64,000 nucleotides of DNA. Source: Vermamoeba vermiformis (lineage: Eukaryota). Below the pieces are notes generated by a model. The model was not told where the DNA came from. It was given only the letters and a program-made list of their open reading frames with translations, and searched no databases. Made by a program: the position numbers and the translations under genes. Below are positions 464-59,907 of this stretch, in pieces. The stretch's first letter is position 1; each line of letters begins with the position of its first letter. The stretch is from NCBI GenBank assembly GCA_045837725.1, contig JBEWZL010000077.1, positions 310,001 to 374,000 of the forward strand. The letters run 5' to 3'.

Positions 464-820
464 TCTGAGTTGTTGTGTTGTTTAGGTTGCGAGATGTTAA
501 AATGAAACTCAACCAAAGTTCGGCTTTTGTGCTGACGCAAGACAGTTTCTACGAATTTCAAGTAACGCCTCGCGTAGTAGAATTGCAATTCTAGCGAACA
601 TATCCTCATTAGTGGCAATTTTGTACCAGTATCATATCAGGCTGTCAACCTACGGCTCGGGTAATTTTCAAATAAACAAATTTCAAACCAAAATAATGTT
701 CCCTATTTTTCTTTGCTGATCGTGCACTAAAGCACAAAATAAGAATCAGTGTTATTTATTAGCAGTGTTAAATTGAATAGTGTTGTTTTGCTCAAGCAAC
801 AGGAGTGACAACGCTAAAAT

Positions 821-3800
821 ATGGATGATCAAGGGCAACGTCTAGATAAAATTGTAGCTCAAAATGGTAACACTCCTATATTAGTTTACAATTAAATTTG
901 ATACAATGTAGTGTTCTTGTGGAGTACACTAGCATAATTGGGCAAATTGAAAAATATTTATTTTATTTTTAATTGAATATCGCATTTATTAAATTAAAAT
1001 ATTACAGAGGAGCTAAAGTTAACAGAGAAAACTCAAAAAGCGATTGCCGAAATTCTTCCGAGCAAAGATCCGCTCGATCAGCCAGACTTCAATTACATAG
1101 ATTATGTGAACACTATTTTTCCAAATGGTACGTCGATTAATAATATCCTGTATTTTATGACGATATTAATTTACATGATAATAGAGAAGTCAGTCGAAAA
1201 TATTGAAAATGAGTTGACGAAACTGCGCCTCAAAGTGAAAAGGTACGAACAGAGGAGCAATAATAATACATATATTATTACAAATGAATATAAATATAAC
1301 ACGTGCACTGCAGAATTGACGAAGATATCCTCTCGTCCGTGTACAAACAAACACGAGCAGGCACGAAGGGCAAGCAAGAGCTCGACAAGGCCAATGTCGC
1401 CGTGCAAGAACTGTTCACTAAAGTCGGTGAGATTAAGCGCAAGGCCTCGGAGAGTGAACAGATGGTCCAAGAGATTTGTCGTGACATTCGCGATCTCGAC
1501 TTTGCCAAGCGCAATTTATCGACAGCTATTGATGCCTTGAGAAAACTGCACGAAGCAGGTCAGTTGCACCACTAAGCAGAGTGCATATGAATGAGACTAA
1601 TCATTGTTATTACGTACAGTGACCTGCTTGGAACAGATTAAGACGATGACGGAGAGGAAACAATACGTTGAAGTGGCCAAGCGGTACTCAGTGAGTGTTA
1701 TGATAATATTGCCTAATAGACGCGTAACTAACTGCATGCAAGACGGTGCAAGAGATCTTGTTGTTCTTCTCGGCATACAAAGACATCCCTAAGATCAAAG
1801 AAATTCAAAAACAAGTTGACGCTGTCACCAGTCAACTGCGCGAGCTGATGTTCTCTGAGTTCAACAAGTACGTTACTGGTAATAATACTGCACCATTGCC
1901 CTATCTAACTTGCGTCACAGCCCTAACTTAAAGCACTTGACACCAAGCGAACAACAACTGATTCTCGACGCGTCATCTGTCGTGTCAGCTCTCGGTCCTG
2001 AAACAAAGAAAGAAGTGCTCAGCAAATTTGCTCAAAAACAAATGGACAATTACTTGCGTGAATTCAAAGAGGGCACTGAGGTACTTCTAAAGCAGACAGA
2101 TTTTTTATTACGGATGCACTGACAAAAGGTTACTTTAGCAAGGAAAACTCGAAAATCTTGAAAAGAGATACACGTGGTTGATGCAACTGTTAAAGCAATT
2201 CTCCGAGCACTACTCCAAAATATTCCCTGCAGCTTGGAAAGTCGACGAATATTTGTGCGAGGAGTTCTGTTTCACAACACGTGACAAAATGTCGGAGATG
2301 TTAGAAAAGAACAAATTCGCCTTGAGCAACAACAAAGAAATGATTCCCGTGTTCACCAAGGCCATCAAAAACACACAGAAATTCGAGCGCGAGTTGATGA
2401 ACATGTTTTCACACACCGTTGAACTGAAGCAGTTTGAAGAGGATGGTCAAAACTTGCAAGACAAGTACGAGAAGTGGAAGCAGAGTCAAGAGAAGGGCGA
2501 GGCAGTGGGCGAGGCACCACAGGCCAAACAGACCACTGAGGCCCTCAAGTTCAAAGGCATTATCTTGTGCGCCTTCACACCTTACTTGTATATTTGGGTG
2601 CAACACCAGGACAGTTTGTTGCAGAGCATGTTCGATCAAGTGCTGGCGGATGAGAAGTGGACTGTCGACGAAGACGAGCGCATCAAAGTGCTCGTGTCGA
2701 GTTCAGACATCTTCTACAACCTCAATCAACTCTACACCAAGTCCTTCAGCAAAGGTCAGTCGCACTTTGACCTCTATCGTCTCTTCAAGAAGTACTTGGA
2801 CATGTACGCGGACAGATTGCGTGACAAGATTCAAGGGTAAGCTGTGCTTAGTTACTTCAAGACTTAAAGACTAATCGACTCAGATTTAACACCGCGACCA
2901 TCAGTGCCGATGAAGAGAAGATCATCTGTTTGGTCCTCAACACTTCTGACTACTGCATCGGATTCACAAAGAAAGTTGAGCAAAACTTCAAAGAGGACAT
3001 TGAAGCAGCGTTCAAAGACAAGGTCGAGTTAGACACCACCGCTGAACGATTCCAAAAGTAAGTCGACTCCGCTACAAGTAAATTCTGGGTGCTGACTAAC
3101 ACCTGCTTGACCAGTCTTATTGGCTTGGCCTCAGCGACACTCGTGAAGGTCATTGGTGACGTCATTGAACCAGCTTTAGAGTCACTCGTCCAAACCAACT
3201 GGGGTATGTCGTGCGTGTGATTGTAATTAGCGAGTGTACTTATCATGCACTACAGAGACCCTGACCTCGGTGGGCGATCAATCAGGCTACATGGACGAAA
3301 TGCAATCGATCATTCAAGAGAAGGCACCTTGGTACCGCAAGTGGATGACCTCAGGCCAACACTTCCAGTTCTGGTGCGACTCATTCGTCGGCGTGTTCAT
3401 TCCCAAGCTGTACGAGTCTATCTTCAAGTGCAGACGAATCAGCGAGATTGGCGCAGAACAACTGCGTGTCGATGTTGCTGCAGCCACCAACTTCTTGGCC
3501 ACAATGCCTGTCTACGGCATGGCACCCACCAATCAGGCCCCAGAACGGTACGTGCTTATTGCCGTCTTCCTCCTTTAATAGCACTAACATTGCATGCGCA
3601 GATATGTCAAGCGTGTCAAGCGTGACATGGGTCGTTTGGACAAGTTGTTGAAGACAGTTATGACACCAGCGGAATTGCTCGTTGACACGTACAAAGCTAT
3701 CGTGCAAGACCACACTGAAATGGACCTCATTAAGATCATGGACATTCAAGGCATCAAGAAGTCAGAGCAAGAGACCTATTTAGATCAATATGGCAGTCCT

Positions 3801-3914
3801 AAGGACTCACCTGGTCGTCTCGAGGTCCGTGCAGCAGCCGCGAGTGAAGACAAGGCCTCAACTATTCGCAAGCTGTTCAGTTTGGACACGTATCGATTAG
3901 ACAGAAATAACTAA
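821..3914 (+). CDS. VPS53: Vacuolar protein sorting-associated protein 53 (GARP/EARP subunit), multi-exon
   Basis: Motifs DPLDQPDFNYIDYVNTIFPN, IKRKASESEQMVQEICRDIRDLDFAKRNLSTAI, SVGDQSGY and KCRRISEIGAEQL are characteristic of Vps53; exons join via GT-AG introns. Confidence 0.95.
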
Positions 3915-4008
3915 GTGGTGCACGTGTTAAATTAATAAATAGCTCATTTTTTTGTTAGTCACTTTCTTGCTCTGATCGTGAAAACAACAACTGCAAGGAA
4001 CTAACATA

Positions 4009-5746: not shown

Positions 5747-5919
5747 GAGCGATTTATTCTATGTTTAGAAACCACGTGATTCAACCGCTTATAGGTACTT
5801 CTTCCGAATTTGTTTCGAAAATTATTCAATTTATTATCGTATACTGCAATCCAGCCAACTAACACGGATGCGTACCTAATACTACCGAACGAAGTTCATA
5901 ACACGAACGAAATTCTAAT

Positions 5920-8770: not shown

Positions 8771-8850
8771 TGTAGAACAAATAATCAGCGTGTTGTATAT
8801 AAATGTAGAATAGTTCGTTAATGCTGACGTGTTATTCAAAGTATTTTACA

Positions 8851-16586: not shown

Positions 16587-18678
16587 ATGGCGTCCTCTTT
16601 CACCTCAAAATTAGCGATCGAGGATCAAGTTGCTTTGAGTAGAGGTAATTTATAGCCAAAATAATTATCAATATCGTGCTTAATTATTTAAAAATTATCA
16701 GCACTACTTCAGCGACATATAAATACTGTTGAATGTCATTCTACTTTTGGTTGCAAGTTCAGCATCCAGTTGCTGGCTCAAACTAAACCCCATGGCGTGT
16801 TCGATCTAATAGAACGAATGACTAGTAGTGTATTGATGAGAAATATGGAGGTTTGCACAGCGCTCCTAATGATCGGCGGCGGAACTTCGTCTACATCTGA
16901 CCAGTAAGCTACAAAGGTATCTACGGCACTAAGCTAATCAGTGGAATATCTAGTCAAGATCTACTTATCAATTTGGGCTGCGCAATTGAATATCAATCAG
17001 CGCAGGACAAAAGCATCAAATTCACTGCCGAGAGTGGATCTATCGTGCTTGTGCCACCTAAAACTAGCATGCTATCGAGTGTGCTACCCAACACATGCCC
17101 CACTGCACTCGGGCACATACCACAAGGGTGCAGTATACTCGTGTCTTTGTGCACGGCAGATTCAAACCTCAGTGATTCTGAGCTTTTGCGGTACAACCAA
17201 CGCTTGCAAAAAGGAATTCAGCACGCATCTAAGCACATTGTAACGGTACGTCGGGCTTATTTTAGTTAAACTTGTATTTTGACATCTTGTATAGCAGTTA
17301 TCCTCGAAGGACAAATTGACAGTCCTGCGCGGACTGTGGCCTCAATTACCCGCAGAAATTTCATATTACATCATCAAACAATTAGACGTCAAGGGACTCA
17401 TGAGATTTGCATGCACTTCTAAAGGCACGCAAACACTGGTGTACAGTGACAACCAGCTCTGGCAGGCTGCAGATGTCACTCGATCGTATTCCAAAGAGTT
17501 GAAGCTCGCTACGAGTAATAGACGATTGATTCAACGGGAGATGAGGAACAAAGGCAAAGATGGCAACGAGAATGTTATGGCATTGGTGGTGGCATTGGGG
17601 TCACATCACATTGACGCAGGCATGGCTGGTGACGACATCCCTGATATTGTAGTGCCCAGTCTTGTGTGTCAAGTCAAGTCATTCGGCGAACAGCCGCAGT
17701 TATTTGCTGGACACGAGGCCACGCTCATTCCTAGCGGCACAAAAATACTGCCGATACAGAAGAAGCAAATTATCAACACAAAATACTTGCTGCACCTTAT
17801 CGAACAAGTTTATGTCTCGCATCCTTGCGCTGATTTCGAATATCAGCCTCTGTTGCTCTCATTTAGTGCACGCAACATGGTGTCAGACTACGACGAGTTG
17901 ATGTACGAGTGCTTGCAACGCTTTAACATTCCTGTGATCGCAGCTGTCGAGTCAGAAACTCTTGCCCTATACACACACGGCCAGACTGATGGCATAGTCG
18001 TGGATGTCGGTTATGAATGCACAACAATAGTTCCAGTCGAGGAAGGTCAGTCTAATATTTCAGTCCTGTACCTCTTACTAACTGCGCGCAGGCTTCGCTA
18101 TTCGTGCCAACATGATAGTGATCCCAGTGGGAGGGCGTCACGTGACATTAGAACTTTTGAATCGCATTCGCGCACAATATCCAGCACTCAGCGACTTGAC
18201 AGAGGAAGAGGCTAATGAGATCAAGGAGAAATATTGTTATTTCAAGACCAACAGTCCATACGCAGCAGTGTACGAAGGTGACCGAGAGGTGTTGATTAGA
18301 GGTGAATACTATCACCTTGGAGAGGCCTTGTACGAGTCATGCAATGTGCTTTTCAATCCTTTCGAGTTTGGCACGGGCACTCGCGACTTTAAAGAGCAAT
18401 ATTCATACATGATAGAATCACTCGAGCACAACTATCCGAAGCCTAAGGTTCGCAATACGGTGGTACTCGTTGGTGCTACGACACTTCTGCCTGGCTACGT
18501 GCACCGATTTAAAGAGGTGGTTGAAGACCTCTACATTAAATTCCCTTCATGGAAACTAACAGCCTTTGCATACCGAGGTTTTGCCGAGTGGATCGGTGGC
18601 AGCATTTTGGGCTCCTTGACTTGCCAGCAAAATTTCTGGCTGACAAAAGAGCAGCTCAAAGCGAGACTTGATGGCTAG
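16587..18678 (+). CDS. F-box + divergent actin-related protein with unassigned N-terminal domain
   Basis: F-box LPAEISYYIIKQLDVKGLMRFACTSK...DNQLW, followed by actin-fold motifs ALVVALGSHHIDAGMAGDD, GIVVDVGYECTTIVPVEEG, EIKEKYCY, WIGGSILGSL. Start codon inferred. Confidence 0.85.
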
Positions 18679-18686
18679 CCTTGGAT

Positions 18687-18977
18687 TTTATTACGGGGGT
18701 GTGCTACAATAAATTGTGGAGTTGTGAGAAAGTGTTGAGAAAGGTCTTTGTTGGTCCCAAAAATTTTGTGTTTTGATTGTTGCGGCCTGTTCTTAACGAG
18801 GAAGTGATGCAATTGTGTTTTGGAGATGCGGTTATGCTACAATTCATCATTACATTACTGCTTCATTAGCGTTTGTGAGGCGTATGGTAATGTGGTGGTG
18901 AAGGGTGGCTTGGTGTACTCTAATTCGTTATCCTAGCAATAGGACCATAGAGTGCGTCAAGTTAATCCCCGAATAAA
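18687..18977 (+). ncRNA. Candidate ~290-nt rod-like structured RNA (long hairpin; pri-miRNA-like or 3'UTR element)
   Basis: Co-linear nested helices, including 17 uninterrupted bp (18843-18859/18886-18902, 4 G:U) and a 13-bp closing stem with one bulge. Confidence 0.55.
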
Positions 18978-19285
18978 CGCGGGTGCACACGGTTCCTCGA
19001 TTACATTGTTGGATCCGCGAGGATCCGATAGTACAATTACTCTGAATTCAAAGTATTTTCACTCGAGACAATAGCTTGTGAATTTCTAGCTTGAAGGAGC
19101 AATCTGGATAGTTGGTTATTTCTGCCCCGTAGGGGGTCGCATCTTCTTTTTTAATGACCAATCTTTTTTTTTGGTTCGACGACTGCTGGCATGCAAATGA
19201 AAAGCGCTTGAACGATCGGCCTTTGTTGGATCTTGCATTGAGTATTAAGCATTATTTTTATTTCGACGCAAGACAAAATTGTTGT

Positions 19286-21896
19286 TTAAAAGAAGTCCTT
19301 GGCTACAACTTTCTTTTTCTTCGCTTTGGTGAGACCAGCGTTCCACACAAGAGGCTTGATCTTAGCAGGCTGAAAAGGAGCTGTTAGGCACTGTAAATGC
19401 ACGATATACTCAATGTTACCTTCAAAATTCCTTTGGGCGAGGACTCGTTGCTTGACGGACTTGCCAATGTCTTCTTCTTAGCTTGTTTGGCGAGCTCACT
19501 CAGTGCTGATCCAGGCAGGTTAGCTAATTTTCGATCGATCCACAAGCTTTGAGAACTACTTACAGATCTCGGTGTTGCGATGCAGGGCCCAGTTGACACG
19601 CTTCTTTCGCTCAGCAGAGGACAGCAGACTCTCATCGACTTGATCGGTCTGTTCAGCGGCACTGTGGCTCGGTGTCTTGGGACTCGCAAGGGCCTTGGCG
19701 CGCATCGGAGTGGCGGGCAACGAGGGCTTGGGCGATGTTTGTGGGGACTGACGGGCCTTCTTGCGACCAGGACTGACGGTCAAAATATCAACGTCCTCTT
19801 GCTCTGCGTCCATAGCATCGTCTCCATTCTCATTGTGCTCGTTGTCATTATCAGCCTCGTCTTCATTGATGTTGTTGTTCTTGCCTTTCTTGTTGTTAAC
19901 TTGCAGTTGTTTCTTGGTGGCTTGTTTCTTCAGCTCACGAATGGACTTAGCTTTAACTACTTTGCGAGGCTAGAAAGAGAGGGTTAGAATCGCGACCACG
20001 AGTATTATAGTCCTTACTTGTTGCTCGACTTCTTCCTCTTGTTCGTTGCCCTCGCCGTTCTGTTCAACTTCCATTTGCTCTTCTAGCTGTTGTTGCTTTT
20101 TGTTCTTCTTGTTGGTGTTGTTGTTCGTTGTGTTCGTGTTGCTGACTTTGACATTCTTGGCACTGCCATTGGCTTGTTTAGACTTCTTTTGCGCTGGCTG
20201 TTTCTCCTCTTTGCTCTCAGTCTCGTGCTCGGTGCTGTCCTCCAAATCATCAGCCTTTCTTTTCTTCACTAACAACGTCAACTTCATGGCCTTTCGTTGC
20301 AGATCCAACTTCATTTCGTATAGCATTGTTCGACCTCCTTCGGTGGTAGCACTATAATAAAATTTTAAGTGAGATAATTTACCAGTGACACGTGTCAAAT
20401 TTGAATAACTTACGGATCCGAAGCGTATTGGAAACAAGTCTTGGAGATTCCTTTCAAGACATCGTTCAGCGCTGATTGATAGGCGGAGAATTTCTTGCCC
20501 AAGTTCTCGCGCAGTGTTTGCTTTTGTTCTTTGGTCATATCTGCGCCTGACTCTTCGCTCGATTGAAGTTTGTATTGTTCACGCGAGATGAAATTGTCTC
20601 GTTTGTTGTCAATGAAATCTAGCACAAATAATATAATATTAATCTATATGATACTTGATACTAAAGTATTGACCAATAGCGTACCAGCCCATTTTTCCAA
20701 CAAACCGTCAAAAATTTCGCGCTTGACACGATTGCGCATGACTTTTTCAAATGAACCGGCCAAGAAATGGACCCAAGGTGTGAACAGCTGTTTAACGACA
20801 TCGGCATTGAGCTGTAAATACATGTTAATTACATATTGCCAAATAAGGAAATGATTTACCTTGATGACATATTCAGGCACAACTTTTTCGAGCTCGTCAA
20901 AGTAGATGTCGGCCAAGTGATACACGACACCTTGAGTGCACGTGCGGATATTGAGTGGTCCTACGGTCTCATCGGTCATTGTTTCCACGAATTTCTGCAC
21001 AACTTCCTCGCTCCAGTCACGTGCTTTAATCAGCTGAAAACACTCGTTCAAAAAGTATCGCACTAAGGCGTAGAACTTGTCCAATCTATTTCAATATAAT
21101 ATTAATATACTATTATGACTATAGAGAGTAAAAATATACTAAAGTGAGCTGATTGAAAAATTAAGCGGCGGATCCAAATTTGAATTTACCTGTAACGATC
21201 AATACCGCTCCATTCGCGGTTCATAGTCGAGAAGAATGCGCGCATATATAGGAAACGTTGTTCTTCGCTAGGCAACACGTGCAATAGTGCCGCTAATTTG
21301 CGCGCAAGCTCGTGTTGAATGAGCGGTTTGTCCGACATCCACATGCCTAGTAATTGTTTATTAATCATTTACTATTTTGAGTTATAATGAATTAATTTAA
21401 CAAGGCAATTCAGGAAATCAATAGAAGTAGCAATAATTTTTTTGAGATCGTTGTTGGATCGTGGTAGATCAACTTACAATAAAAGAGAGCCTTCCAAATT
21501 TTGTTCAAATCGAGTTCTGAAATATCTTGTTTGGATGAGAGCCATCGCTCGAGCACTTTGACGGCCTTGTCTCGTGTTTTCTTGTCTAAATAACAAATTC
21601 GTTGTTAGATGTGACACTCAACACCATCAGAAAATTAGTTTCGTTGCGTAACAAATGTTTAAAAAATATTTATAACCGTATAATTATTATTTTAGCATTG
21701 ATTATTTTTTCTGGGTGTAACGGATGGATTAGATTCGATCGGATCGTCGATCGCACTATTAAAAATCAAGACAAATTGATAGCAACAATAATAATGTCTT
21801 ATAAACATATATTTAATTAAAATTACCATTAGATGCTAGCTTGTTGCCAAATCTGAGCTGGTTTTTGCTTGCCGCTTTGTTAGGTTTGGATGCCAT
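19286..21896 (-). CDS. RRP1: Ribosomal RNA processing protein 1 (RRP1/NNP-1/Nop52) with long low-complexity tail
   Basis: LASN-DKKTRDKAV, KIWKALFY, MWMSDKPLIQ, REWSGIDRYRLDKFYALVR, GVVYHLADIYFDEL; tail ends AKDFF. Confidence 0.92.
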
Positions 21897-30967: not shown

Positions 30968-31283
30968 AAAAAAACTAGCATTGCCACAGCTTTCCTTACT
31001 GAAGCTCGCTTTCCTACGCCTGAGGCAAAGAGTTCAGCGTAACGATGCAGCACGATAAGTACTACCAAGCGAGTTCCATGTACCTTAACAACCGCCACTT
31101 CTGATTGGTCCAGTAAAACTAACGGTAAATCTGAACGCTATCTCCCTTAGGGAAGCGCTACTGTGCCTACAATACTCGTACTAACGCTATTCGACATATA
31201 GGCAATAGAAAGCGCCGCAATCCAAGGGAAGTTACCCGGTAAAGCGTGCGTACAAACTTTCCGTATTTGGAAGATTCAGCTAA
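30968..31283 (-). ncRNA. Candidate ~310-nt multi-domain structured RNA ending in a T7 run
   Basis: Two nested helical domains with G:U pairs on the minus strand, short 5'/3' closing stem, TTTTTTT immediately downstream. Confidence 0.45.
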
Positions 31284-31349
31284 AATTAAACTCTGTTAAT
31301 GAACGGCAGCAGGTGAACTACATTCGAATAGTTGTATTATGTTCGCGTT

Positions 31350-38096: not shown

Positions 38097-41000
38097 ATGC
38101 TAAATAGATCTATATTAATATATTTGTGCGTATTTGTCGGCCTCGCTTGTGTCACTTTGGCTCAGGTAAGAAAAATATCTTTGGCGCGAAGTCTTTACAC
38201 TGTAAAATAATTCAAATTAATATTCCATCATATGAAAATATTTTGTTAATTATAACAGTCGTCACTTAATTATTTTGGAATTTTTGGAGCTTTTTTTGAC
38301 ACGTTAATTTTTTTGCGATTCATGTCTTTCCACCAGTTTCTTGACAAATAGTTTGACTATTTATATTATAGCGAGTGGCTATAGTAGGTGGTGGAATAGG
38401 AGCAGCAACTACGGCATTTTATTTGAAAGAAAAACAGCCCTATGCTGAGATTGTTGTTTATGAAAAGACTGACAGGCTTGGCGGTCGATTGGACCACATT
38501 AAAATCGAGAATCATACATTAGAGGCATGTAATATATAATATATTCGTTAGTACGATGTAAACTAATATATGTTGAGTTCAGAAAGGCGGTGAGAACTGG
38601 ATTCGCATGAACAAGTATGTCGATCGAATGGCGCGTGAATTAGGCATACCTCTCGACGAAGAAGGTAATATATATATAATTGACTATTAATACGCCTATC
38701 ATTACGAATACAACAGTCATGATTGAGATCCGGCCGATAATTATTTAATGCCACGGAGCTTTAATTAGCCACCTATATGAGATTACATATATTTACCATA
38801 TTCTGATATCGATCTCATATCTGACGTTCATTTGTACCAGACCCAACAACAGCGCGAGATCCAATTAAAGTTCTCATTTGGCACAAGGACCGCCAGTGGT
38901 TGCCCTTTGCCCTTGGTCAGCCTACACTCGACAACATTAGATTTCTCGCTGAGGTTGAAAAATTCAAGTACCATTGCTTGGAAAATTATTTATCGCGCGG
39001 AGCAGATCTAGCGGCCACTGAAGACTTGAAAGAGTTACTGGACTATGGCGAGTGGAATAAATATACCAATGTTAGTTTTGGTGATTGGTTGCGCAAGGCG
39101 AGAGTATCAGATGAGTTCATTGCCGAACAACTTACCCCGATCTTGCGTGTAATCTACGAACAAAACGAAAACATCAACGGTACGTATAATAATGATTAAT
39201 TTGTATTATATTATGGCTATAATAAGTCTAATTGGTCGTTACTAATGAAATTTCTATATGCAGCCTTTGCCGGATTCGTTTCGTTCTTAGACACCTTTGA
39301 GCCTCTAGGCGCTACTCATGGCAACAGAGGCATTGTAGAAGCAGCTCTGAAAGAAAAGGCAGACAAAGTACTCTTCAACACCGCCGTACAGAGCATTGAG
39401 TACTACGAGCAAAGCGGTCAATATACGATCAATGGCCAGGAGAAATTCGATTACGTAGTCATAGCTGGTATGTAATACACCCATACTATACATAACAATA
39501 ATTATCTACCAAATACTGAATCATCTTATTTATAAAATTAATGTCGGATCCACATAACGAAAAGTTATTCGTTGTAATGATTCTAATCTATTGTAAATAT
39601 AGTCCCGCTTGAGTTTGCCAATATCAGATCGAACAGCATCAAGTCGTTGAGTGAAGTCAAGCCACGTAAATTCGTCGGCAAGGCAGTGACTCACGTGATT
39701 GCTGAAGGACTGAATGTAGACTATTTGGACGGTACTTTGCCCGAGCCTAATGGTGTATTCACTACGCACGATAGTACTGCACCGTTCTATTCAGTTGTAA
39801 GAAAACTCAAGCTTGATGGTACGCAATCAGATCTCGTTACAAAAAATAATACTTTTGCTTAGAAATCAAATCTTACCGTATTTAATACCCCTAATATGCT
39901 TTAATATTACTATAATACTATTTTTAATCACGAATTAGCGTGTTACTGACATTTTATTATTAGCCAAGAGATCCGTTTACAAGTTCTTTTCCCCCCGAGA
40001 AATGACGCGCGCTGAACTCGACAAAGTGCTGAAAGGCATCAGTTATGTACACACGACTACTTGGGAGTACACATTCCCGCAATTGGATCCGATCAACGAA
40101 TACCAACCCATGCAACTGCATCAAAAGTTATTTTATATTAACGGCATTGAAAGTGCTGCTAGCGCCATGGAAGGTATGTATACTAAATCATTCGTATATA
40201 TGTAATGAACTGCTATTATCTTTCGAAGAATTTAGTACTGACTTTTATTGCCTAATTAGGAAGTGCACTTTCGGCACGTAACATTGCGTTGCTAATTGCC
40301 GCTCAAGAGACGCACGGCGATGTCAAAGCAGTGGCCGGCAAGGAGAAACCAATTCCAGCTTTGCCTTATTTGGAAAAGTTGATAGCACACCCCTGGGCCC
40401 AGTACTTTGTGCTGTTCATCACGGGTGCCTATTACGGCTCGATTTATTCCGCGATGGAGATTCGCTCTGCTAATTCTCCGCGCGAATTCTTTGCAATTAT
40501 TCAGTTCGTGCTGACAGCCTACCTCGTTGGCTTCTGGACGGAATATCTTATTTCCTTTTTAGTACCGTTCACTGCCGCACTACAGCCACGTGATCTTGCC
40601 GTGATGAGTGGCGGTGAAATCATTGGCGGAATTTTACTCGGCCTAGGCATGATTCTTTCGCGTAAGTAGTATTTGGCTGAAACGTTACCAAATTAGGCAA
40701 TACTCTAACACTGATCACGTGATGCAGATGTTGCGGCCCCAGCAGCCCTCGTTTTAAAGATGAAAAATCTGACCAATCAGACACGCAGAACGAGTGCCAT
40801 TTTGACACTTTTGGGTGTGACAGCAGGCATCGTGTTGTGCGTGACAGCAAACGAATCTTTGCAATCGTTCGTCGGTGTCGTCTCTTAGTAAGTACACCAC
40901 GCGCTGTATTATTGCAAAGATTACTTACTGACATTCCTCTTGTAGTTTCAGCGGTGGCGTTAATCCTCAGCCCACAGCACTGGATCTGCGCTTGAATGTG

Positions 41001-41680: not shown

Positions 41681-44600
41681 CTATTTCTCGCGATCGGTTG
41701 AGCTTGGTGGGGGTGGGCCCTAAACAAGTCATTAATAAATAATCAGGAGATGATAAATGTATGTATAACTTACTCCTCCAGGGGGCATGGTGTACGCAGG
41801 TGGCTCAAGAACGTGCGGCACATTGATCCACTTGGCTGGATCCGGTTCAGCGGCAATCTCTTCCAAAAATTTGAGCAGATGATCTAGATCATAAAATATT
41901 AGACATAAAGCCACTATGATCATAGATAGGCCCTCCTTACCCGTCGACGGTCGAACATCGGGGATGTGGTTCCAACATCGCTGAATCATGCTCGCTAATG
42001 CCACAGGACAAGCTTTATCGATTGTTGGTCGAATACCTCGTCTTGCAGCCTGATTACAAAACAAAAAATTAGAAATTGTTATGCTGATAACAAAAGCGTA
42101 ACGGTTGGATCCAAAACAAAAAATAAATGTTAGCCTGGTAGCTTAGGAACAATTGTAATAGTTCGTTACTCAATCATTCGGCCATGATAGGCTAGACTCG
42201 CTCTATGCGCTTTTGACGATTCAGGCCGTGATGAAAGTGCACAGCGCGAAAGGTAAGGAAGCGCAAGAAATTATTCAAAAAAGAAATTGGATTCGCAGGG
42301 TTTCGATCCCCGTACCTCCCGCATGCTAAGCGGACGTGCTACCAAGTGCACCACGAACCCGTCGTTGAAACGGTCCGCAGTTTTTGCTTGGTGCCGTCAC
42401 CTCAGGCGCTGCGGAGTTGAAAAACGAACAGCGGATCTTACCTGTACAATGATTTGGAAGTCGTAGATCAACGTCTTGAACTCCGAATACGGCGGTTGAT
42501 ACGTTCCCTAAGTTCCAATACGTTAGTTGATGCTTCTTACGCGTAATAAGTCCAGATCGACGTACCTTGATGCACTTCGTGACTAACTCCCACGCTACGA
42601 TAGCAAACGCGTAGACGTCAGACTTGGGCGTGAACGATTGTCCAAAGTAGACCTCAGGAGAAATGTACGCGTAAGTGCCGCGCATTTTACACAGCGTCTC
42701 CAAGTTATTGCCAACCAATTGCCTGCTCAACGTTAGACTCTAAAACAACGGCTAGATCCGCCACAGTTGGACGTACCTTGATTCTCCAAAATCGCATAAC
42801 TTGGTCTGCCAGTCATTATCAACTAAGATATTCCTGCTCTATAAATTTCCGTTCGTTAGAAAGATTATATCAAAGTCTCAAAAAGGGTCAGATCCGTTTA
42901 CCTTTAAATCTCTATGCACAATTTGAGGCTTCCAGTTATGCAGCGAATGAAGACCTCGCACGACTTGATGCAGCACTTTAACGACAATAGGCCAAGTGAG
43001 CACTGTTTGCGGGTCTTTCATCACACTGTACAACGACCCTCGCTCGCCGTAACCGAGTACCATCACTGGCGTCGGTTTGATGCACGCACCGAAAAAGAAA
43101 ACAATATCCGGACTGCGGAATTGACTGCACAAGAAATCACATGTTAATTACACTTCCCATTCACGAAATGAATTTAGTCCCTACCTCATTATAGTAAATT
43201 CCTTGGTAAAATTGTCCAATTGTTTCTCGTTCAGATCCTTCAATACTTTGAGCGCCACAATTTGATTTCTGAATTTGCCTTTGTAGACTGAACAGCTGGT
43301 GCCTTCACCGATCTTTTCAATGAATTCAATGTCAGTGCCGTCAATTTCCCAGCTGTGCGTCAACATCGTTGGCTTCCATCGAGCAAACGAGTCCTTGAGT
43401 TCGGTAAGTTCAATGGTCGGATCCTTCTTCTCTGCGAGTTCAAAAGGAGTGTTAGTAATATGATACAGTTACATATGTGAGCGTACTTTTCTTCTTGCGT
43501 CCTTTATCTTTTGGCGATTTGCCATCAACACCATTCGCTGAAAGCATTCGTTTGGTCTTATTCCGCTTATTTGGCTTCGTGTCATTATATTTATCATACT
43601 ACAGTAGTTATTAGTAAAACGCAATTAAATCAAATCAAGATAGCGGTATTCTACGAACCGCAATACAAAATGAAAATATTTCCTTTTAAGGAAAATAATC
43701 GAAAAGGGTGTTCCGAGCTTATCGATAGTTAAATATTGCAGCGTATAGGTTAATCGACTCCTTTTGGTGTTTTGAATTTTTGGGTTTCTGGATGCAAAAA
43801 AAAAAATCCAAAAATAGCTTACCAAATCGGTACTGCTCCGCTTGTGCTTGTTCGTGCTCGGTGATTCACTTTCAGCTATCTTTTTGTCCTTGTCTTTACT
43901 CTCCTTGTCTTTGCTTTCTTTGCCGCTCTTGCTCGGTGTGTTCGTTGCATTCGTGTTCACGCCAGAGCTGCTGGGACCATTATCCAGCTCCCCGTCTTTC
44001 TTCTTAGACGACGATCGACGGCTCTTCTCCTTCTCCTTCGGCTTCAGCTTGGGACTCTCGCTAGTTTTAGTGCGCGACTTGTCCTTGTCTCGCTTCTTGT
44101 CCTTGTCACGTATCTTCTTCGGGGTCGAGACTTCTATTGACGTGGGACCGCTGTCAATCTGCGCGGGCAAGTTAGGGCTGCTCATTGAATTGCGCAAGTC
44201 ATCGCCTGTCTCCAATTGATCATTGGTGTTCGATTGCAGGGTTGGATCTGACTGCGACTTGGTGTTTCCGCTGAAGATATTTTCGCTGAGTGTCTTCGGG
44301 GGCTCAACTTCTGCAGGCTCTGGCTTTTGCGGGGCAGGAGGTTCAGTTACGGCCACGCTAGGACCATTATTTTCAACGCCATTCGGCTCTTTGTTGTTAT
44401 TTTTATCCTCCGCTGCGTCTTTGGGTTTTGGCGGTGATTTTGGTGACTTGGGCGCCTTCGGTTTCTTGTCTTTAGGCGTCTTTTCAGGTGTTGTTGGTGA
44501 CACGCCTGGTTCTCGTTCAGGCCGCGGCGATGGCTGAATTAACGCCGGTCGCGTGGTCGTGCTGAACCCTTTCGGCTCGGGTGTCGTCGGAGCTGTTATG

Positions 44601-45365: not shown

Positions 45366-46250
45366 ATTTTATCAACTCTTTGCCAAATTTTGATTTTTTC
45401 TTTGTATTCTAGAAAAGAAAAAACCGTATTAATAAAATAATCCTCTGGTGACTGTTTCCGCCTATACTATCATATACAATTACACAACATTATATAAATT
45501 ATTATTATAACAGAATGCGAGTTGGAAATGAATTTACCAAACCGCAGATTCGATCGAAAGAAAAATCTTTGCAATTCGAATCAACCTCCAATCTTGGCAC
45601 AACTGTATTATCCCACCCACGATTACTGAATACAGATGCAATTTAGTATTTCGTGTTCTGTTGGGTACCGCAGTGTGTATACAGAAAACAGGCTAAAATA
45701 GATTTTTTCGCTGTGTGGTTCATTAACGCGAACTATTGCCAAGCTAAATATGGCAACGCGGGACCTTCGGAAGTTAGTTATAAAGCATGTAAGCTACGAG
45801 GTCGTCCTAAGGTGCTTGTAGATCCCTGCTGACCGAAACACCGGATTTGCTTTACGTATTTGGGTTGATATCAAATCATTTAGCCGTTGCGTAAATAACC
45901 AATTACCAATTTAAGCAAGTACGATTTTTGTATGCGGCACGTATCTTGTCCTCATAATATCAAGATTTCGTATCAATGTGGACGCACTACGTCCGCACGT
46001 CGACAAAAGTGTAATTATTGCTTCTTGTTATTTAATTAACGTCTACGTAGTATTGTTCGATGAAACGGGTGTTAAATAATGGCTTCCTAATTTGCGTTGT
46101 TTTTAATCATTTTGCGCAAAATTCTTTCGGAAAATAATTTTTGGGCCGGAAAATTCAGATAACAACCCTTATTTGAAATAGCAACGTACATATAAATACA
46201 ACAACGTAAGTACATTACGATCATTCGATAATTAGTGACGACAAACTGAC

Positions 46251-53097: not shown

Positions 53098-54022
53098 GGT
53101 TCTTTGTGTTTTAAGTGTTTACTATCGAGCTGTGCGGCAAGTTCGTCCCTGGTTGTATTTACAGGCGGATTGCAAACTAATTTTGCTCGAGTTTGGCGTT
53201 AGATCCGCAAATGAATATTATTGTCTTGATGCAGACAAATGACGATTATTATGCCCTTGTGCACGGCTCATAAAATAATAATTGATTTGGTCGATAAAAT
53301 TTTTGCCAGTTTTCTTCGATTGATTTTTCTCCAGCTATTTCATTCAGCAACAATTGCTCGTAATAATACATACCCGGCTAGAGTACAAAGCATCGGGCTT
53401 GTCAGTGGGACATAATCCTCTGGGCCTAAGATCCACGCATCTAGCCGTTGCAAGTGACACAACGCTGTCCGAACGCATACAAAGGGATTAATTGTGACTT
53501 GGTGGTGTACGTATTAATCTACGTTCGATCAAGACACAAGAAACCGAAGTTGAATAGCGAATCTTTTGTAATCTTTCGCGCATACAAAATTTCGACGATC
53601 GGGCGTTTTAGTTGGTCATTGATTGCGCCAAATAGGGATTCAAGTTCGCGTGCAGCGTATCTTTTGAGCTAAATTTAGGTAATTACACGGAGTAAGCGAA
53701 TAAAATTTAGCTAGTACAAAAAAGCAATTTGCTTGACTTATGAAGGACTTCTAAATAAGATAATTTATGTTTTATTTGATTTTCTTTGTCTATGCAAAGA
53801 TAAATTACAATCAAGCGATATTTAATTACAAAGTTAGTACTTATTTTAAATAATATTGTCTAGACAAGCTAAATAATAAACCAATCGAAGTAATGCAAGG
53901 CTCTCTTAATTCTCTCTTGTTAATGACTCAACGCAAAATAACACGAAACGCCAGCTAGCTAATATACAATTTAGCGATTCTGAGAGCCTTGTAGCATTAC
54001 CTCGATTGATCTCTCATCTAGC

Positions 54023-55237
54023 TTACAGAATGAGGCAATTGCCTCGCTTCTTCTTAGTCTGGCTTGGGGGACCGCCGTTCTTCTCCCAAATTTGATCGAT
54101 CAGTGAGAAAAAGATCTCATTAATGTTCACGTCGGTCTTGGCTGATGTTTCCAAAAATGGGCATCCGTACGCTTTGGCGAGCTCTTTGCCATCCTTAGTC
54201 TCGACTTCACGCTTCTTTTCCAAGTCACACTTGTTGCCGACGAGGACCATAGGGACCTACGCACGTAATTGTCAGTACTATCGCTTGAATTACAAAATTC
54301 CTGCTGCTATTTTCGGCAGATCGACAAATTAATTTCAATTAAAGCTCCTTAAAATAGGTTTCATGACTTACGCTTGAGCTGCTCTTGTGTCGAATAATGC
54401 CTTGGCGGATAGGATCCAAATCTTCTAAACTGCGTTGTGAAGTAATACTGTACACTAAAACGAATCCCTAACAAATTTAACGTAATGAGCTCGCGATCCA
54501 CTTTTAGTTAGGTCTTTTGAAATTTACCTCTCCGTTCTTCATATATAATTCTCGCATTGCACTGAATGTTTCCTATGATAAAAAATGCCGATGAGCTCCG
54601 AATCGGGATGGTTTTGCAGCATGTACTTACTTGACCAGCTGTATCTAAAATTTCTAAAACACAAGGAATTCCTTGATATTCAATAACCTTTTGATATCTA
54701 TCTTCGATTGTCGGGTCGTACTGTAACAAAATAACGGTAAGTGAGGTTGCGAGAGCGTAGGAATAAAATTAATTAATCAATTAAAGCAGACATTAAATAT
54801 CATAAAATTATAAACGTCATTATTATTTAGCATGTGAATTGCTATATTGCTGATGTGTAGAAGGTAAAGAAAAAAAAGTGCACCGATTTGACTCGGTTTA
54901 AAAATTTATTAATGTTGAAATGAGTCTAAATAATCATCCTTCGCTGTGAGTACAACGGTATTATTAATTGTTCATAAGTATGTACTAAAATACGAAGGAA
55001 GATAATTTCTTCAATTTCGGATGGGTAGTGGAGTGATCAATTCAAAAACATTACCTTAGCTTCAAATTGACGGTTGACAAATCTAATCGTGATAGCGCTC
55101 TTGCCTACACCTCCAGAGCCCATTACGACAAAGTGGTACGTGCACGAAGTTCGTGTATCTTCGTTCTTGGCTCCACATTGTGAGCAGAAGTTGTAATTAT
55201 CAGGATTCTTGTGTCTACACTTTGGGCAGCGAGGCAT
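54023..55237 (-). CDS. Ras/Rap-family GTPase with N-terminal zinc ribbon and CaaX (CLIL)
   Basis: MPRCPKC...FCSQCG, then [41 protein letters not shown]. Confidence 0.93.
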
Positions 55238-56010
55238 TATGTATTATATTATAGAGCTGTGTTCGCTGTGTATCGGGGGACAATTAAATTGAAAAAATAA
55301 ACCTCGACAAAAAAGGACCGTTGAAGACAAAATTTATTGCCTATTTTTAACACACCAATCCTCCACAACCAACAAGATTCTTAACTAAATTAAGGCAATG
55401 TTTTTTATTCCGTCGTGGCCAGCTCCGTGACTCTGATCAATAAAAACGGTAAATCTGGGCAGCGCTATCAGTATGGCGTACTTTCTCCTTAATTTGAAAT
55501 GACCCAAATATTCAGGATTATTTACGCTAGAGATTTAATGCACGTCGATTGTTAACGCGTGGTTTGCGTATCTGGCGTTCGGGCCACGATCAGCAATTAA
55601 TGGAGATCGTAAAATTAACTGAGCACGGTATTAATTCACCTTACTATTTGCTGGAGATGCACGTGAGATTAAAACAAAGACCGCTTCAGATGCAGGGTAA
55701 ATTTCTTTATCTGAAAACTTGAACGAACGAAGAGCAAGGAAATAAGTAAGCCACTTTCTTTAGACCGTCTTCGCATTGCTAGAAGAGGTACAGGCTAATT
55801 TTGGGTCAAATTAACCTCTATTGTACTGCTCAGTAAGAACGTACGTGCAGATGTGAACTTTTAGCAATCCAATTTGGCAAGGAGGCTACCGTTGATACGA
55901 ACTACGAGATATCCAAGTGGGTTATTTCAGAAATAAAGTTTACTAAATTACAATCTATGATGACGTGTTTTACAAGGCAACCTACCGCAAAAAAGTTCGA
56001 GTTCCAGCGA

Positions 56011-59000: not shown

Positions 59001-59429
59001 CTGCTCGCAAAAGAAAGATTAGAAATCGTTGCAGTATAATGAAAGTAACATAATTAATATAATAATTTGGTTGATAATCGGAGAATAAAGAAAGCAATTT
59101 GCGCAAGTGAATTGATCTCGATATTTTTGTGGGACACGTTTTTAAATTGAATTAATTCATATAATACACGCTTAGTTATATCAAGCTTACAAGTAAACAA
59201 AGTTAGCCTTATAAATTAATTATTACGAGATCTACGATATTTTTTATTCAATTGGAGAATTCGAATGGTAATTCAAGCACTACGTACCGTCTTGTAGTTT
59301 AATTGATAGAACCTCTTCAATCCACTGTTTTACTCCTTTTTGCAAATTAATAAACTCATACACACGCTCATCTGGGACGAGAGCGCTGAAGTTTCTCGAT
59401 TCCTCTCTGCGGACTGGTGCTCGGGCCAT
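56011..59429 (-). CDS. RhoGEF: calponin-homology + IQ-like + DH + PH + coiled coil
   Basis: CH (KQWIEEVL, LKRGVILC, KENISFFL, DLWENKSIVNVVICL); DH (REKIAKEILSTEVVYV, YLIMPVQRVPRYNLLLEDLVKHT); PH (LYLLNDMVIL). Confidence 0.92.
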
Positions 59430-59907
59430 TGTCAAATTAATAGGCTCAATACGAATCACTGGCCTAGTGTTGTTGAGGACGTTGTATACAATTCGATTCA
59501 AATTAAACGCAAGTAAATTTTAACCATTAAAAATCTTGCTTGACATTTCTGTCATTTGGTGCTCGAACGCACACTTGGTACTCGATACTAAAGCTTTATG
59601 TTTGAAGACTATAATATGTTTCGTGCGACGGGTACTCTTTTCAAGTCTCATCTAAACATCGTTGGTTAAATTTAACTCGCAGAAACGAGTGCAAGCGATT
59701 GCCTTTAATTCGTAAGTTCCTACTCGAGCATATATTTGGGAACAAATTTCGGTTAGTATGACGTGCTACTTGACGTCTATAAAATCAGGAAAATGTCTCT
59801 GACTTTTATTGAAAGTTAAGACGAAGAGAGAATCAACAACCCTTTGTTTTTATCTATATTATCACTATATTTATATCATAATCAAGTACCAATTCAGAGA
59901 TCAAAGC

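What the first reader, a model, noticed from the sequence alone, without database searches (positions are those of the whole stretch)
486..59731. Recurrent strand-specific structured islands in the larger intergenic gaps: a possible undescribed class of ncRNAs
Seen: at least seven intergenic gaps (486-619, 18687-18977, 30968-31283, 45667-45997, 53375-53712, 55412-55892, 59559-59731) contain a ~130-480 nt island that looks GC-richer than the AT-rich flanks, has no convincing ORF, and can be drawn as nested helices whose wobble pairs are G:U on one strand (they would be A:C on the other). They share no obvious primary sequence, except an apical loop TAGCGTT(T/A)G in two of them. I could not match them to snRNA, SRP, RNase P/MRP, U3 or telomerase motifs. 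Inference: a dispersed set of structured RNAs (small-RNA precursors, Pol III RNAs or decayed fold-back elements). Caveat: 7-8 bp helices allowing G:U arise often by chance in 300 nt, so only the co-linear long helices are strong evidence.
Basis: partly seen in the sequence, partly recalled or inferred. Interest (0 to 1): 0.75.

Follow-up and report, generated by a model that had tools for sequence, protein, structure and literature searches.

The report
One real RNA fold, six ordinary gaps
Six of the seven flagged intergenic islands fold no better than shuffled sequence and share nothing, so there is no recurring RNA class, but one locus between two convergent genes holds a strongly folded, strand-specific RNA-like element that matches no known RNA family.

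Summary
The window is a compact, intron-rich eukaryotic region from an unnamed lineage. All seven islands lie in intergenic gaps. Six of them are average-GC cores (0.405-0.456) inside AT-rich gaps (0.307-0.341).

As a class of structured RNAs, the finding fails:
- With dinucleotide shuffles, 12 of 12 strand-folds of six islands have z between +0.43 and -2.47. None survives correction for 14 tests.
- Boundary-free scans show these islands fold like the rest of the window: 0 of 42 windows below z -2, against 68 of 1258 elsewhere.
- The islands share no sequence, k-mer or Rfam family.
- The "shared loop" motif is at chance level and sits on opposite strands.

Island 2 is the exception. Its best-defined form is 18797-19034 (+): MFE -99.6 kcal/mol, z -6.87, 0 of 200 shuffles. 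It contains a 29-bp hairpin with z -8.26 and two hairpins with GNRA tetraloops.
- The minus strand is about 42 kcal/mol weaker.
- The hairpin beats every low-GC local structure in the window and in 7 shuffled copies.
- It matches no Rfam family and fails a defining RNase MRP feature.

It is an orphan candidate ncRNA. Neither expression nor conservation could be tested.

The parts
18797..19034 (+). Best-defined structured element: a closing helix enclosing hairpins A and B, followed by hairpin C
   Evidence: MFE -99.6 kcal/mol, identical to the centroid; shuffles -65.78 +/- 4.92; z -6.87; 0 of 200 shuffles as good. Minus strand: -57.9 kcal/mol, z -3.09.
18797..18823 (+). 5' strand of the long closing helix
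   Evidence: Pairs with 18963-18999 in both the MFE and the centroid structure.
18963..18999 (+). 3' strand of the closing helix; contains the second AATAAA (18972-18977)
   Evidence: AATAAA position.
18836..18909 (+). Hairpin A: 29 bp (5+17+7), 7 G:U pairs, one 2x2 internal loop, one 4-nt bulge, 8-nt loop UUAGCGUU
   Evidence: -38.6 kcal/mol, z -8.26, 0 of 200 shuffles, MFE frequency in the ensemble 0.67. Minus strand -13.5 kcal/mol, z -2.75. Lowest local structure with GC<=0.45 in the window; the next real ones are -27.7 and -29.0 kcal/mol, and the minima of 7 shuffled strand-copies are -28.6 to -33.1. Helix list.
18908..18962 (+). Hairpin B: 15-bp stem, asymmetric internal loop, 5-bp stem capped by GCAA (a GNRA tetraloop, 18936-18939)
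   Evidence: -20.0 kcal/mol, z -4.48, 0 of 200 shuffles; helix list.
19005..19032 (+). Hairpin C: 12 bp capped by GCGA (a GNRA tetraloop, 19017-19020). Only the 6-bp palindromic core survives on the minus strand.
   Evidence: -16.6 kcal/mol, z -4.12, 1 of 200 shuffles; minus-strand fold.
18687..18977 (+). It overlaps the element but starts about 110 nt too early and ends about 60 nt too early.
   Evidence: z -5.63 and -5.23. Block-preserving shuffles give z -4.66 and -4.41, 0 of 100 each. The fold has 101 pairs: 45 A:U, 31 G:C and 25 G:U.
18708..18713 (+). First AATAAA, 30 nt after the stop codon (18676-18678) of the F-box/actin-related gene; likely its poly(A) signal
   Evidence: four other genes have their first AATAAA 5-93 nt after the stop, against a background of 0.95 per kb per strand.
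17295..18678 (+). Upstream neighbour: a gene with an F-box and an actin fold
   Evidence: Pfam F-box/F-box-like plus Actin.
19287..21090 (-). Downstream convergent neighbour, Nop52-like. The last exons and the stop near 19286-19288 were read by eye from splice-like motifs.
   Evidence: Pfam Nop52 on 20647-21090; ORFs; sequence. The exon model is inferred, not verified.
19056..19172 (+). T runs after the element: T4 at 19056, T6 at 19147, T9 at 19164. There is no T4 run between 18822 and 19055.
486..619 (.). Island 1: ordinary core of a divergent promoter gap
   Evidence: z -0.42 (+) and -1.10 (-); GC 0.410 against 0.307 for the rest of the gap.
30968..31283 (.). Island 3: ordinary tandem gap between the dynein light chain gene's 3' end and the next gene's 5' end
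   Evidence: z +0.09 (+) and -0.96 (-).
45667..45997 (.). Island 4: ordinary core of a divergent promoter gap
   Evidence: z -0.73 (+) and -0.33 (-).
53375..53712 (.). Island 5: ordinary tandem gap
   Evidence: z -1.14 (+) and -1.74 (-).
55412..55892 (.). Island 6: ordinary tandem gap; the weakest 'maybe' of the six
   Evidence: z +0.43 (+); minus strand -2.47 with 50 shuffles and -1.70 with 100 shuffles, 4 of them as good.
59559..59731 (.). Island 7: ordinary core of a divergent promoter gap
   Evidence: z -0.57 (+) and -0.73 (-).

Best explanation
There is no recurrent class.

Six islands (1, 3, 4, 5, 6, 7) are ordinary promoter/UTR spacer. They are average-GC cores flanked by the AT-rich tracts that abut genes in this compact genome, and their predicted folding is that of random sequence of the same composition.

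Island 2 is different. It belongs to a roughly 240-nt, plus-strand-specific structured element at 18797-19034, in the middle of the gap between two convergent genes. A roughly 25-bp closing helix encloses a 29-bp hairpin (A) and a GNRA-capped hairpin (B), followed by a second GNRA-capped hairpin (C).

I take it to be a functional structured RNA read from the plus strand. It is most likely a separate small non-coding transcript, or one processed out of read-through from the upstream gene. The long hairpin looks like a plausible double-strand-specific RNase III/Dicer-type or protein-binding substrate.

What is shown: the fold statistics, the strand specificity, the position, and the absence of any Rfam match. 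What is inferred: transcription, the ends of the RNA, and any function.
For: SIX ISLANDS ARE ORDINARY
- 12 of 12 strand-folds have z >= -2.47, and none passes correction for 14 tests.
- In the boundary-free 291-nt scan, 42 windows over these islands have mean z -0.13 and 0 of 42 fall below -2. Elsewhere the mean is -0.09 and 68 of 1258 fall below -2.
- In the 120-nt scan, 3 of 64 island windows fall below -2, against 3.3% window-wide.
- The whole-window 120-nt scan equals its shuffles: z<-2 in 106 real against 109 shuffled of 3196.
- No shared sequence, k-mers or motif. No Rfam hit.

ISLAND 2 IS REAL
- z -5.2 to -5.6, and -4.4 to -4.7 with shuffles that keep local composition.
- 18797-19034: z -6.87 on the plus strand against -3.09 on the minus strand, with energies of -99.6 and -57.9 kcal/mol.
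- Three adjacent hairpins are each significant: z -8.26, -4.48 and -4.12.
- It is the top window in both whole-window scans.
- Hairpin A is 5.5 kcal/mol below the best low-GC structure found in any of 7 shuffled strand-copies.
- 25 of 101 pairs are G:U. Hairpin A has 7 G:U pairs and no A:C-type interruption.

POSITION
- The first AATAAA lies 30 nt after the upstream stop, as in other genes here.
- A 234-nt stretch free of T4 runs covers hairpins A to C and is followed by T4, T6 and T9 runs.
Against: - No expression data and no related genomes were available. Transcription, RNA ends and covariation are all untested.
- It is a single locus, picked after the fact by a reader who chose boundaries to maximise helices.
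- The genome-wide null for hairpin A rests on only 7 shuffled strand-copies.
- By raw energy alone, 6 of 8 shuffled copies reach -38.6 kcal/mol or lower somewhere, always in GC-rich (0.55-0.69) patches.
- In the regression-based 120-nt scan, the hairpin window (z -4.68) is not far beyond the shuffled tail, where 3 of 3196 windows fall below -4.
- The minus strand also folds better than its shuffles (z -3.09), as any Watson-Crick helix must. An old inverted duplication is therefore not excluded.
- A second AATAAA at 18972-18977 would make most of the element a 3' UTR.
- The six islands have a mildly negative mean z (about -0.8 over the 12 folds). I attribute this to boundary selection, because it vanishes in the boundary-free windows.
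Confidence: 0.7

Rival explanations
1. One reading: all seven islands are members of an undescribed dispersed class of structured ncRNAs, such as small-RNA precursors, Pol III RNAs or decayed fold-back elements.
For: - 6 of 7 are compositional islands inside AT-rich gaps.
- Their 12 full-length folds are on average slightly below shuffles, with mean z about -0.8.
- The island 6 minus strand reached z -2.47 in one estimate.
- 2 of the 7 WCCCAWAA matches in the window fall inside islands 2 and 6.
Against: - None of the 12 folds survives multiple testing.
- The shift disappears with boundary-free windows: mean -0.13, 0 of 42 below -2.
- No shared sequence, k-mer or loop motif beyond chance.
- No low-GC local hairpin other than hairpin A exceeds shuffled copies.
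- The total WCCCAWAA count equals chance: 7 against 6.97.
Confidence: 0.05
2. The island 2 element is a cis-acting structured 3' UTR of the F-box/actin-related mRNA. It would work through stability, localisation or translational control via double-stranded-RNA-binding proteins, and not as a separate RNA.
For: - It starts 119 nt after that gene's stop codon, on the same strand.
- An AATAAA at 18972-18977 would end a roughly 300-nt UTR holding hairpins A and B.
Against: - An earlier AATAAA lies 30 nt after the stop, like the +5 to +93 positions seen at four other genes.
- The later AATAAA is buried in the closing helix.
- Hairpin C and the 3' strand of the closing helix lie at or beyond that signal.
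Confidence: 0.25
3. Hairpin A is a microRNA-like or small-interfering-RNA precursor cut by a Dicer/RNase III enzyme. The surrounding helices would be the primary-transcript context.
For: - 29 bp with only a small bulge and internal loop; -38.6 kcal/mol in 78 nt; z -8.26; a single dominant fold with ensemble frequency 0.67.
- Such values are typical of microRNA precursors. That comparison is recalled general knowledge, not a tool result.
Against: - No small-RNA data.
- The only microRNA family match is MIR1886 at 16.1 bits, against a gathering score of 62 and with E 2.4-2.8.
- No complementary target was found in the window. The best non-self matches of island 2 are 11-21 nt with E>=0.63.
- The two GNRA hairpins and the long closing helix are not explained by this reading.
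Confidence: 0.2
4. The island 2 fold is a non-functional relic: an old local inverted duplication or fold-back in a transcribed region. Strand-biased transitions would have turned G:C and A:U pairs into G:U on the plus strand.
For: - The minus strand still folds better than its shuffles, at z -3.09.
- At the DNA level the arms of hairpin A are 74% complementary.
- The plus strand is G+T-rich, at 0.622.
Against: - There are three separate significant hairpins plus a long-range closing helix on one strand, not one duplication.
- Hairpin A has 7 G:U-type positions and 0 A:C-type positions.
- Two apical GNRA tetraloops.
- No copies elsewhere in the window.
Confidence: 0.2

Closest known systems
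MicroRNA / microRNA-like precursor hairpins (animals, plants, Dictyostelium, fungi)
   Same: Hairpin A is a roughly 75-nt stem-loop with 29 bp and few defects. Its folding energy is far below shuffles (z -8.26) and it folds on one strand only.
   Different: - No small-RNA evidence.
- No family match above noise.
- It is embedded in a larger multi-helix fold with two GNRA hairpins.
RNase MRP / RNase P RNA (Pol III, about 260-370 nt, paired 5' and 3' regions)
   Same: - Similar size range.
- A long helix pairs the two ends of the domain.
- A C-run/G-run pair (18967-18970 with 19131-19135) loosely resembles P4 strands; that resemblance is recalled from memory.
- T runs lie downstream.
   Different: - No Rfam hit even at E<=10 on a 441-nt search.
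- No GARAR pentaloop anywhere on the plus strand of 18790-19180. PMC13184271 (passages read) gives this feature as conserved in MRP RNA from protists to metazoans.
SRP RNA S domain (helix 5 splitting into helices 6 and 8, both tetraloop-capped)
   Same: A long closing helix opens into two hairpins, one of them with a GNRA-type tetraloop and an asymmetric internal loop. The SRP layout itself is recalled, not from a tool.
   Different: - No hit to any SRP family in Rfam at E<=10.
- Hairpin A has an 8-nt loop and no SRP-like internal loops.
- There is no Alu domain.
Dictyostelid Class I RNAs and DUSE-driven ncRNA genes
   Same: A DUSE-like octamer (18755-18762) lies about 40 nt upstream of the closing helix and about 80 nt upstream of hairpin A. 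PMC7919456 (passages read) places DUSE about 60 nt upstream of the transcription start.
   Different: - The octamer count in the window equals chance: 7 against 6.97.
- The motif letters are recalled, not seen in the passages read.
- Class I RNAs are about 60 nt long.
- The organism is not shown to be a dictyostelid.
Ordinary promoter/UTR composition in compact AT-biased genomes
   Same: Six islands are average-GC cores between the AT-rich tracts next to genes. They have no fold signal, motif or ORF.
   Different: Nothing distinguishes them from it with the tools at hand.

Membership tests
New class of structured ncRNAs (the finding itself) | Members fold significantly better than dinucleotide shuffles on one strand | tested here: not met
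   Met by 1 of 7 islands (island 2). The 12 strand-folds of the other six have z from +0.43 to -2.47. 0 of 42 boundary-free windows fall below -2.
New class of structured ncRNAs (the finding itself) | Members share a sequence or loop motif | tested here: not met
   TAGCGTTWG: 3 matches against 1.11 expected, and the island copies are on opposite strands. All 97 blastn hits have E>=0.2. The k-mer sharing maxima are reached or exceeded by 71% (k=7) to 100% (k=8) of shuffles.
Any Rfam 15 family (4227 models) | Score at or above the gathering threshold | tested here: not met
   Only tRNA-Ala at 42288-42360 passes. Nothing inside any island reaches E<=5. Around island 2, only hits at 16-18 bits, against gathering scores of 37-62.
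RNase MRP RNA | P8 pentaloop 5'-GARAR-3' (PMC13184271, passages read) | tested here: not met
   No GARAR on the plus strand of 18790-19180.
RNase MRP / RNase P RNA | Catalytic pseudoknot with CR-I, CR-IV and CR-V, as recognised by the Rfam models | tested here: not met
   No hit to any RNase MRP or RNase P family at E<=10 in 18760-19200.
SRP RNA | Helix 8 / S-domain signature, as recognised by the Rfam SRP models | tested here: not met
   No SRP-family hit at E<=10.
Telomerase RNA | Template complementary to the telomere repeat | tested here: inconclusive
   No 8-mer of a CCCTAA-type template on either strand of 18679-19286. The organism's telomere repeat is unknown.
MicroRNA-like precursor | Stable hairpin with 22 or more mostly paired bp and energy well below shuffles | tested here: met
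   Hairpin A: 29 bp, -38.6 kcal/mol, z -8.26.
MicroRNA-like precursor | A discrete 20-24-nt small-RNA duplex from the arms | not testable with these tools
DUSE-driven dictyostelid ncRNA gene | DUSE about 60 nt upstream of the transcription start, enriched at ncRNA genes (PMC7919456, passages read) | tested here: inconclusive
   One match at 18755-18762 (+), but the window total of 7 equals the chance value of 6.97. The transcription start is unknown, the taxon is unknown, and the motif letters are recalled.
Protein-coding exon | An open frame with a family match | tested here: not met
   0 of 8 island-overlapping frames have a Pfam hit at E<=0.01. No frame of 50 aa or more overlaps island 2.

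The most novel reading that the evidence does not exclude
The 18797-19034 (+) element is the gene for a new family of structured non-coding RNA in a poorly sampled eukaryotic lineage. It would be about 240-350 nt, possibly a Pol III transcript ending at the downstream T runs. It would be built as a long closing helix, a 29-bp hairpin and two GNRA-capped hairpins, and it would be unrelated to the families in Rfam 15.
Probability: 0.3. Interest if true: 0.55.

Novelty: new member of a known kind. Interest (0 to 1): 0.25.

Why it matters
As a class, it does not matter. The recurrence came from drawing helices by eye in about 300 nt of sequence, and showing that prevents seven false ncRNA annotations.

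The one surviving locus is a cheap, well-defined target. It is a strand-specific fold with z near -7, sitting alone in a roughly 500-nt unassigned stretch of a gene-dense genome. The lineage is so sparsely sampled that a Vps53 fragment finds a single relative, at 43% identity. If the element is transcribed and conserved, it would add an orphan structured RNA (or a Dicer-type precursor) to a group with essentially no ncRNA annotation.

Tried and rejected
1. Shared loop motif TAGCGTTWG: chance level, and the island copies are on opposite strands.
2. Sequence kinship among the islands or with the rest of the window: none.
3. DUSE-like promoter octamer WCCCAWAA, recalled from memory: 7 matches against 6.97 expected. 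The paper passages confirmed only the roughly 60-nt spacing, not the letters.
4. RNase MRP/P idea for a 18797-19152 transcript:
   - It folds with z -4.61.
   - There is no Rfam hit and no GARAR.
   - My by-eye pairing of the two ends (18800-18809 with 19138-19146) did not appear in the MFE.
5. Telomerase template: none for a CCCTAA-type repeat.
6. H/ACA snoRNA, C/D snoRNA, Sm-site snRNA, 7SK, and Pol III A/B boxes. I looked for these by eye only and found no convincing boxes. They were not tested by any tool other than Rfam.
7. Coding potential of the islands: none.
8. Naming the organism:
   - The STT3 fragment gave unnamed hits at up to 97% identity and named metazoan STT3A at about 81%.
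   - The F-box/actin gene gave 4 hits, none named.
   - The Vps53 fragment gave 1 hit at 43%.
   - The Atlas gave only "Eukaryota".
   - The taxon stays unknown; fungus-like introns (GTAAGT...CTAAC...AG, about 55 nt) are seen.
9. Full-text search for the two arms of hairpin A: 0 papers.
10. DNA-level inverted-repeat scan of the whole window: 23 weak pairs and no family.
11. Raw-energy ranking alone is not discriminating: 6 of 8 shuffled copies reach hairpin A's energy, in GC-rich patches. It had to be conditioned on GC.

Not done:
- The closed collections (metagenome contigs, viral contigs) were not searched.
- The bacterial/archaeal genome collection was not searched, because the window is eukaryotic.
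- No comparative or covariation test was therefore possible.
- No covariance model was built, because only one copy exists.


Full report
WHAT THE WINDOW IS

The window has 41.7% GC and many short open frames interrupted by introns of about 55 nt. These introns have GTAAGT donors and CTAAC/TACTAAC branch sites.

Pfam assigns ordinary eukaryotic genes: Vps53, a SET-type substrate-binding domain, ankyrin, STT3, COX17, Thoc5, F-box plus actin, Nop52, a short-chain dehydrogenase, dynein light chain, chromo-shadow, RGS, protein kinase, SNAP, PH, kinesin and CH.

Rfam finds one gene, tRNA-Ala(AGC) at 42288-42360 on the minus strand.

The organism could not be named:
- An STT3 fragment hits unnamed sequences at up to 97% identity and named metazoan STT3A at about 81%.
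- The F-box/actin gene has 4 relatives, none named.
- A Vps53 fragment has 1 relative, at 43%.
- The Atlas reports only "Eukaryota".

CHECKING THE OBSERVATION

All seven intervals lie between coding frames.
- Islands 1, 4 and 7 sit between divergent gene starts.
- Islands 3, 5 and 6 sit between tandem genes.
- Island 2 sits between convergent gene ends.

The gene ends were read from ORFs and from the sequence. They are approximate.

Island GC is 0.405-0.456, against 0.307-0.341 for the rest of the same gap. Island 2 does not fit (0.409 against 0.422). The islands merely equal the window mean of 0.417.

No island has a credible ORF. The islands share no sequence: all 97 non-self blastn hits have E>=0.2. 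They share no k-mer beyond shuffles.

The quoted apical-loop motif occurs 3 times against 1.11 expected, and 9 of 100 shuffles reach 3 or more. Its two island copies are on opposite strands.

FOLD STATISTICS FOR THE SEVEN ISLANDS

I folded each island on both strands against dinucleotide-preserving shuffles.

| Island | z, plus strand | z, minus strand |
|---|---|---|
| 1 | -0.42 | -1.10 |
| 2 | -5.63 | -1.69 |
| 3 | +0.09 | -0.96 |
| 4 | -0.73 | -0.33 |
| 5 | -1.14 | -1.74 |
| 6 | +0.43 | -2.47 |
| 7 | -0.57 | -0.73 |

- The fold tool gave -5.23 for island 2 plus, with 0 of 200 shuffles as good.
- It gave -1.70 for island 6 minus, with 4 of 100 shuffles as good.
- With 14 tests, only island 2 plus survives.
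- The large raw plus/minus energy differences in islands 3 and 6 are matched by their shuffles, so they reflect G+U content and not structure.
- The 12 values for the six islands average about -0.8. This shift is expected when a reader sets boundaries around helices, and it vanishes with fixed windows.
- In the 291-nt scan, the 42 windows covering those six islands have mean z -0.13 and none falls below -2. The other 1258 windows have mean -0.09, and 68 fall below -2.
- In the 120-nt scan, 3 of 64 island windows fall below -2, against 3.3% overall.

WHOLE-WINDOW CONTROLS

A 120-nt, 40-nt-step scan of both strands used z-scores from a composition regression trained on shuffles. It is indistinguishable from its shuffles: z<-2 in 106 real against 109 shuffled windows of 3196, and z<-3 in 12 against 19.

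At 291 nt there is a modest real excess: z<-2 in 67 against 38 of 1314, and z<-4 in 5 against 1. The excess is concentrated at three places:
- 18687-19074 (+);
- 53801-54091, on both strands;
- 31200-31490 (-).

Only the first overlaps an island's core.

ISLAND 2

The signal is robust.
- Shuffling within 97-nt or 48-nt blocks, which preserves local composition, still gives z -4.66 and -4.41, with 0 of 100 shuffles as good in each case.
- The best-defined unit is 18797-19034 (+): MFE -99.6 kcal/mol, identical to the centroid, z -6.87, 0 of 200 shuffles as good.
- Its reverse complement reaches only -57.9 kcal/mol, z -3.09.

The anatomy:
- A closing helix of about 25 bp pairs 18797-18823 with 18963-18999.
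- Hairpin A (18836-18909) has 29 bp as 5+17+7, 7 G:U pairs, one 2x2 internal loop, one 4-nt bulge and the loop UUAGCGUU. It folds at -38.6 kcal/mol, z -8.26, with ensemble frequency 0.67.
- Hairpin B (18908-18962) has z -4.48 and the apical tetraloop GCAA.
- Hairpin C (19005-19032) has z -4.12 and the tetraloop GCGA.
- In the island 2 fold, 25 of 101 pairs are G:U. This is why the minus strand loses the structure. On the minus strand hairpin A drops to -13.5 kcal/mol, and hairpin C keeps only its 6-bp palindromic core.

For a genome-wide null I ran local folding with span <=90 nt.
- By raw energy, hairpin A ties for lowest on the plus strand.
- Raw energy is not decisive, however. 6 of 8 block-shuffled copies reach -38.6 kcal/mol or lower somewhere, always in patches of GC 0.55-0.69.
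- Restricted to GC<=0.45, hairpin A (GC 0.44) stands at -38.6. The next real loci are at -27.7 (+) and -29.0 (-). The minima of 7 shuffled strand-copies run from -28.6 to -33.1, so 0 of 7 reach it.
- The same test shows that nothing else in the low-GC, mostly intergenic, sequence is exceptional at hairpin scale.

CONTEXT OF THE ELEMENT

- The F-box/actin-related gene stops at 18676-18678. An AATAAA follows at +30 (18708-18713). Four other genes with clear stops have their first AATAAA at +5 to +93, against a background of 0.95 per kb per strand. The mRNA therefore probably ends near 18730.
- On the other side, the Nop52-like gene appears to end near 19287, with its own AATAAA equivalent at about 19259-19264. 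This was read by eye and is not verified.
- That leaves about 500 nt unassigned, with the element in the middle.
- From 18822 to 19055 the plus strand has no T4 run. T4, T6 and T9 runs follow at 19056, 19147 and 19164. This is compatible with, but does not show, a Pol III-type transcript.
- A second AATAAA at 18972-18977 keeps the 3' UTR reading alive, though it lies inside the closing helix.

WHAT THE ELEMENT IS NOT

- Rfam 15 gives nothing at gathering scores. At E<=10 on short sub-windows it gives only noise: CRISPR-DR63 at 17.9 bits and MIR1886 at 16.1 bits.
- I pursued a resemblance, recalled from memory, between the C-run at 18967-18970 and the G-run at 19131-19135 and the P4 strands of RNase MRP RNA.
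  - The longer candidate 18795-19152 folds with z -4.61.
  - It has no MRP or P hit.
  - It has no GARAR pentanucleotide anywhere on the plus strand. PMC13184271 (passages read) describes that feature as conserved in MRP RNA from protists to metazoans.
  - Membership is therefore rejected.
- No CCCTAA-type telomerase template is present.
- A DUSE-like octamer at 18755-18762 is at chance frequency in the window. PMC7919456 (passages read) supports only the roughly 60-nt spacing rule. The motif letters are my recollection.
- A full-text search for the hairpin arms found no paper.

INTERPRETATION

The recurrent class is not real. Six islands are ordinary promoter/UTR cores.

Island 2 belongs to a genuine, plus-strand-specific structured element of unknown family. 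I think it is most likely an independently accumulated small ncRNA, or a processed piece of read-through transcript, whose long hairpin could serve an RNase III/Dicer-type enzyme or a double-stranded-RNA-binding protein.

Live rivals are a structured 3' UTR, a microRNA-like precursor, and a neutral relic of an inverted duplication. Transcription, the RNA ends and conservation are all untested.

VERDICT

Interest is low as a class (0.25 overall). There is a 0.3 chance that the single element is a new ncRNA family.

Noticed in passing
window 53876-54010 (both strands): Near-perfect inverted repeat with arms of about 24-27 nt and a spacer of about 68 nt. It starts about 15 nt downstream of the stop (54023-54025, minus strand) of a Ras-like GTPase gene. 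z is -6.24 (+) and -5.67 (-), with 0 of 200 shuffles as good on each strand. Unlike island 2 it is symmetric, so it is a DNA-level repeat or a 3'-end stem.
   Followed up: partly
window 31340-31489 (-): GC-rich multi-hairpin fold with z -3.14 (0 of 200 shuffles as good). It is the lowest local energy on the minus strand (-41.5 kcal/mol at 31369-31451). It lies in the 5' coding part of the plus-strand gene that starts at about 31346, just 3' of island 3. The plus strand is also low (z -3.01 in the 291-nt scan).
   Followed up: partly
window 38270-38410 (-): An AT-rich segment with an unexpectedly stable fold: -27.4 kcal/mol against -14.35 for shuffles, z -4.12, 0 of 200 shuffles as good. Its context was not examined.
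   Followed up: no
window 42288-42360 (-): tRNA-Ala(AGC), the only Rfam/ARAGORN gene in the window. It overlaps the end of an open frame (42329-42739, minus strand) that carries a protein-kinase match, so it sits within or directly beside that gene.
   Followed up: no
window 17295-18678 (+): A gene that combines an N-terminal F-box with an actin fold. Only 4 relatives were found among 5.8 billion clustered proteins, the closest non-self at 59% identity and one of them with the same F-box-plus-actin Pfam pair.
   Followed up: partly
window 55040-55243 (-): The Ras-like GTPase gene begins with a zinc-ribbon-like CxxC...CxxC segment ([10 protein letters not shown]...CSQCG) ahead of the G domain, as seen in the ORF translation.
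   Followed up: no
window-wide (e.g. 18708, 30902, 34453, 41537): AATAAA lies 5-93 nt after the stop codon in 5 of 14 putative gene ends examined (some of the 14 may be exon ends and not true stops). The background is 0.95 per kb per strand. This suggests canonical poly(A) signals and very short 3' UTRs in this genome.
   Followed up: partly
window 2139-2837 (+) and others: The lineage is poorly sampled. A 233-aa Vps53 fragment finds a single longer relative, at 43% identity. No close named relative appeared in any of the three protein searches.
   Followed up: partly
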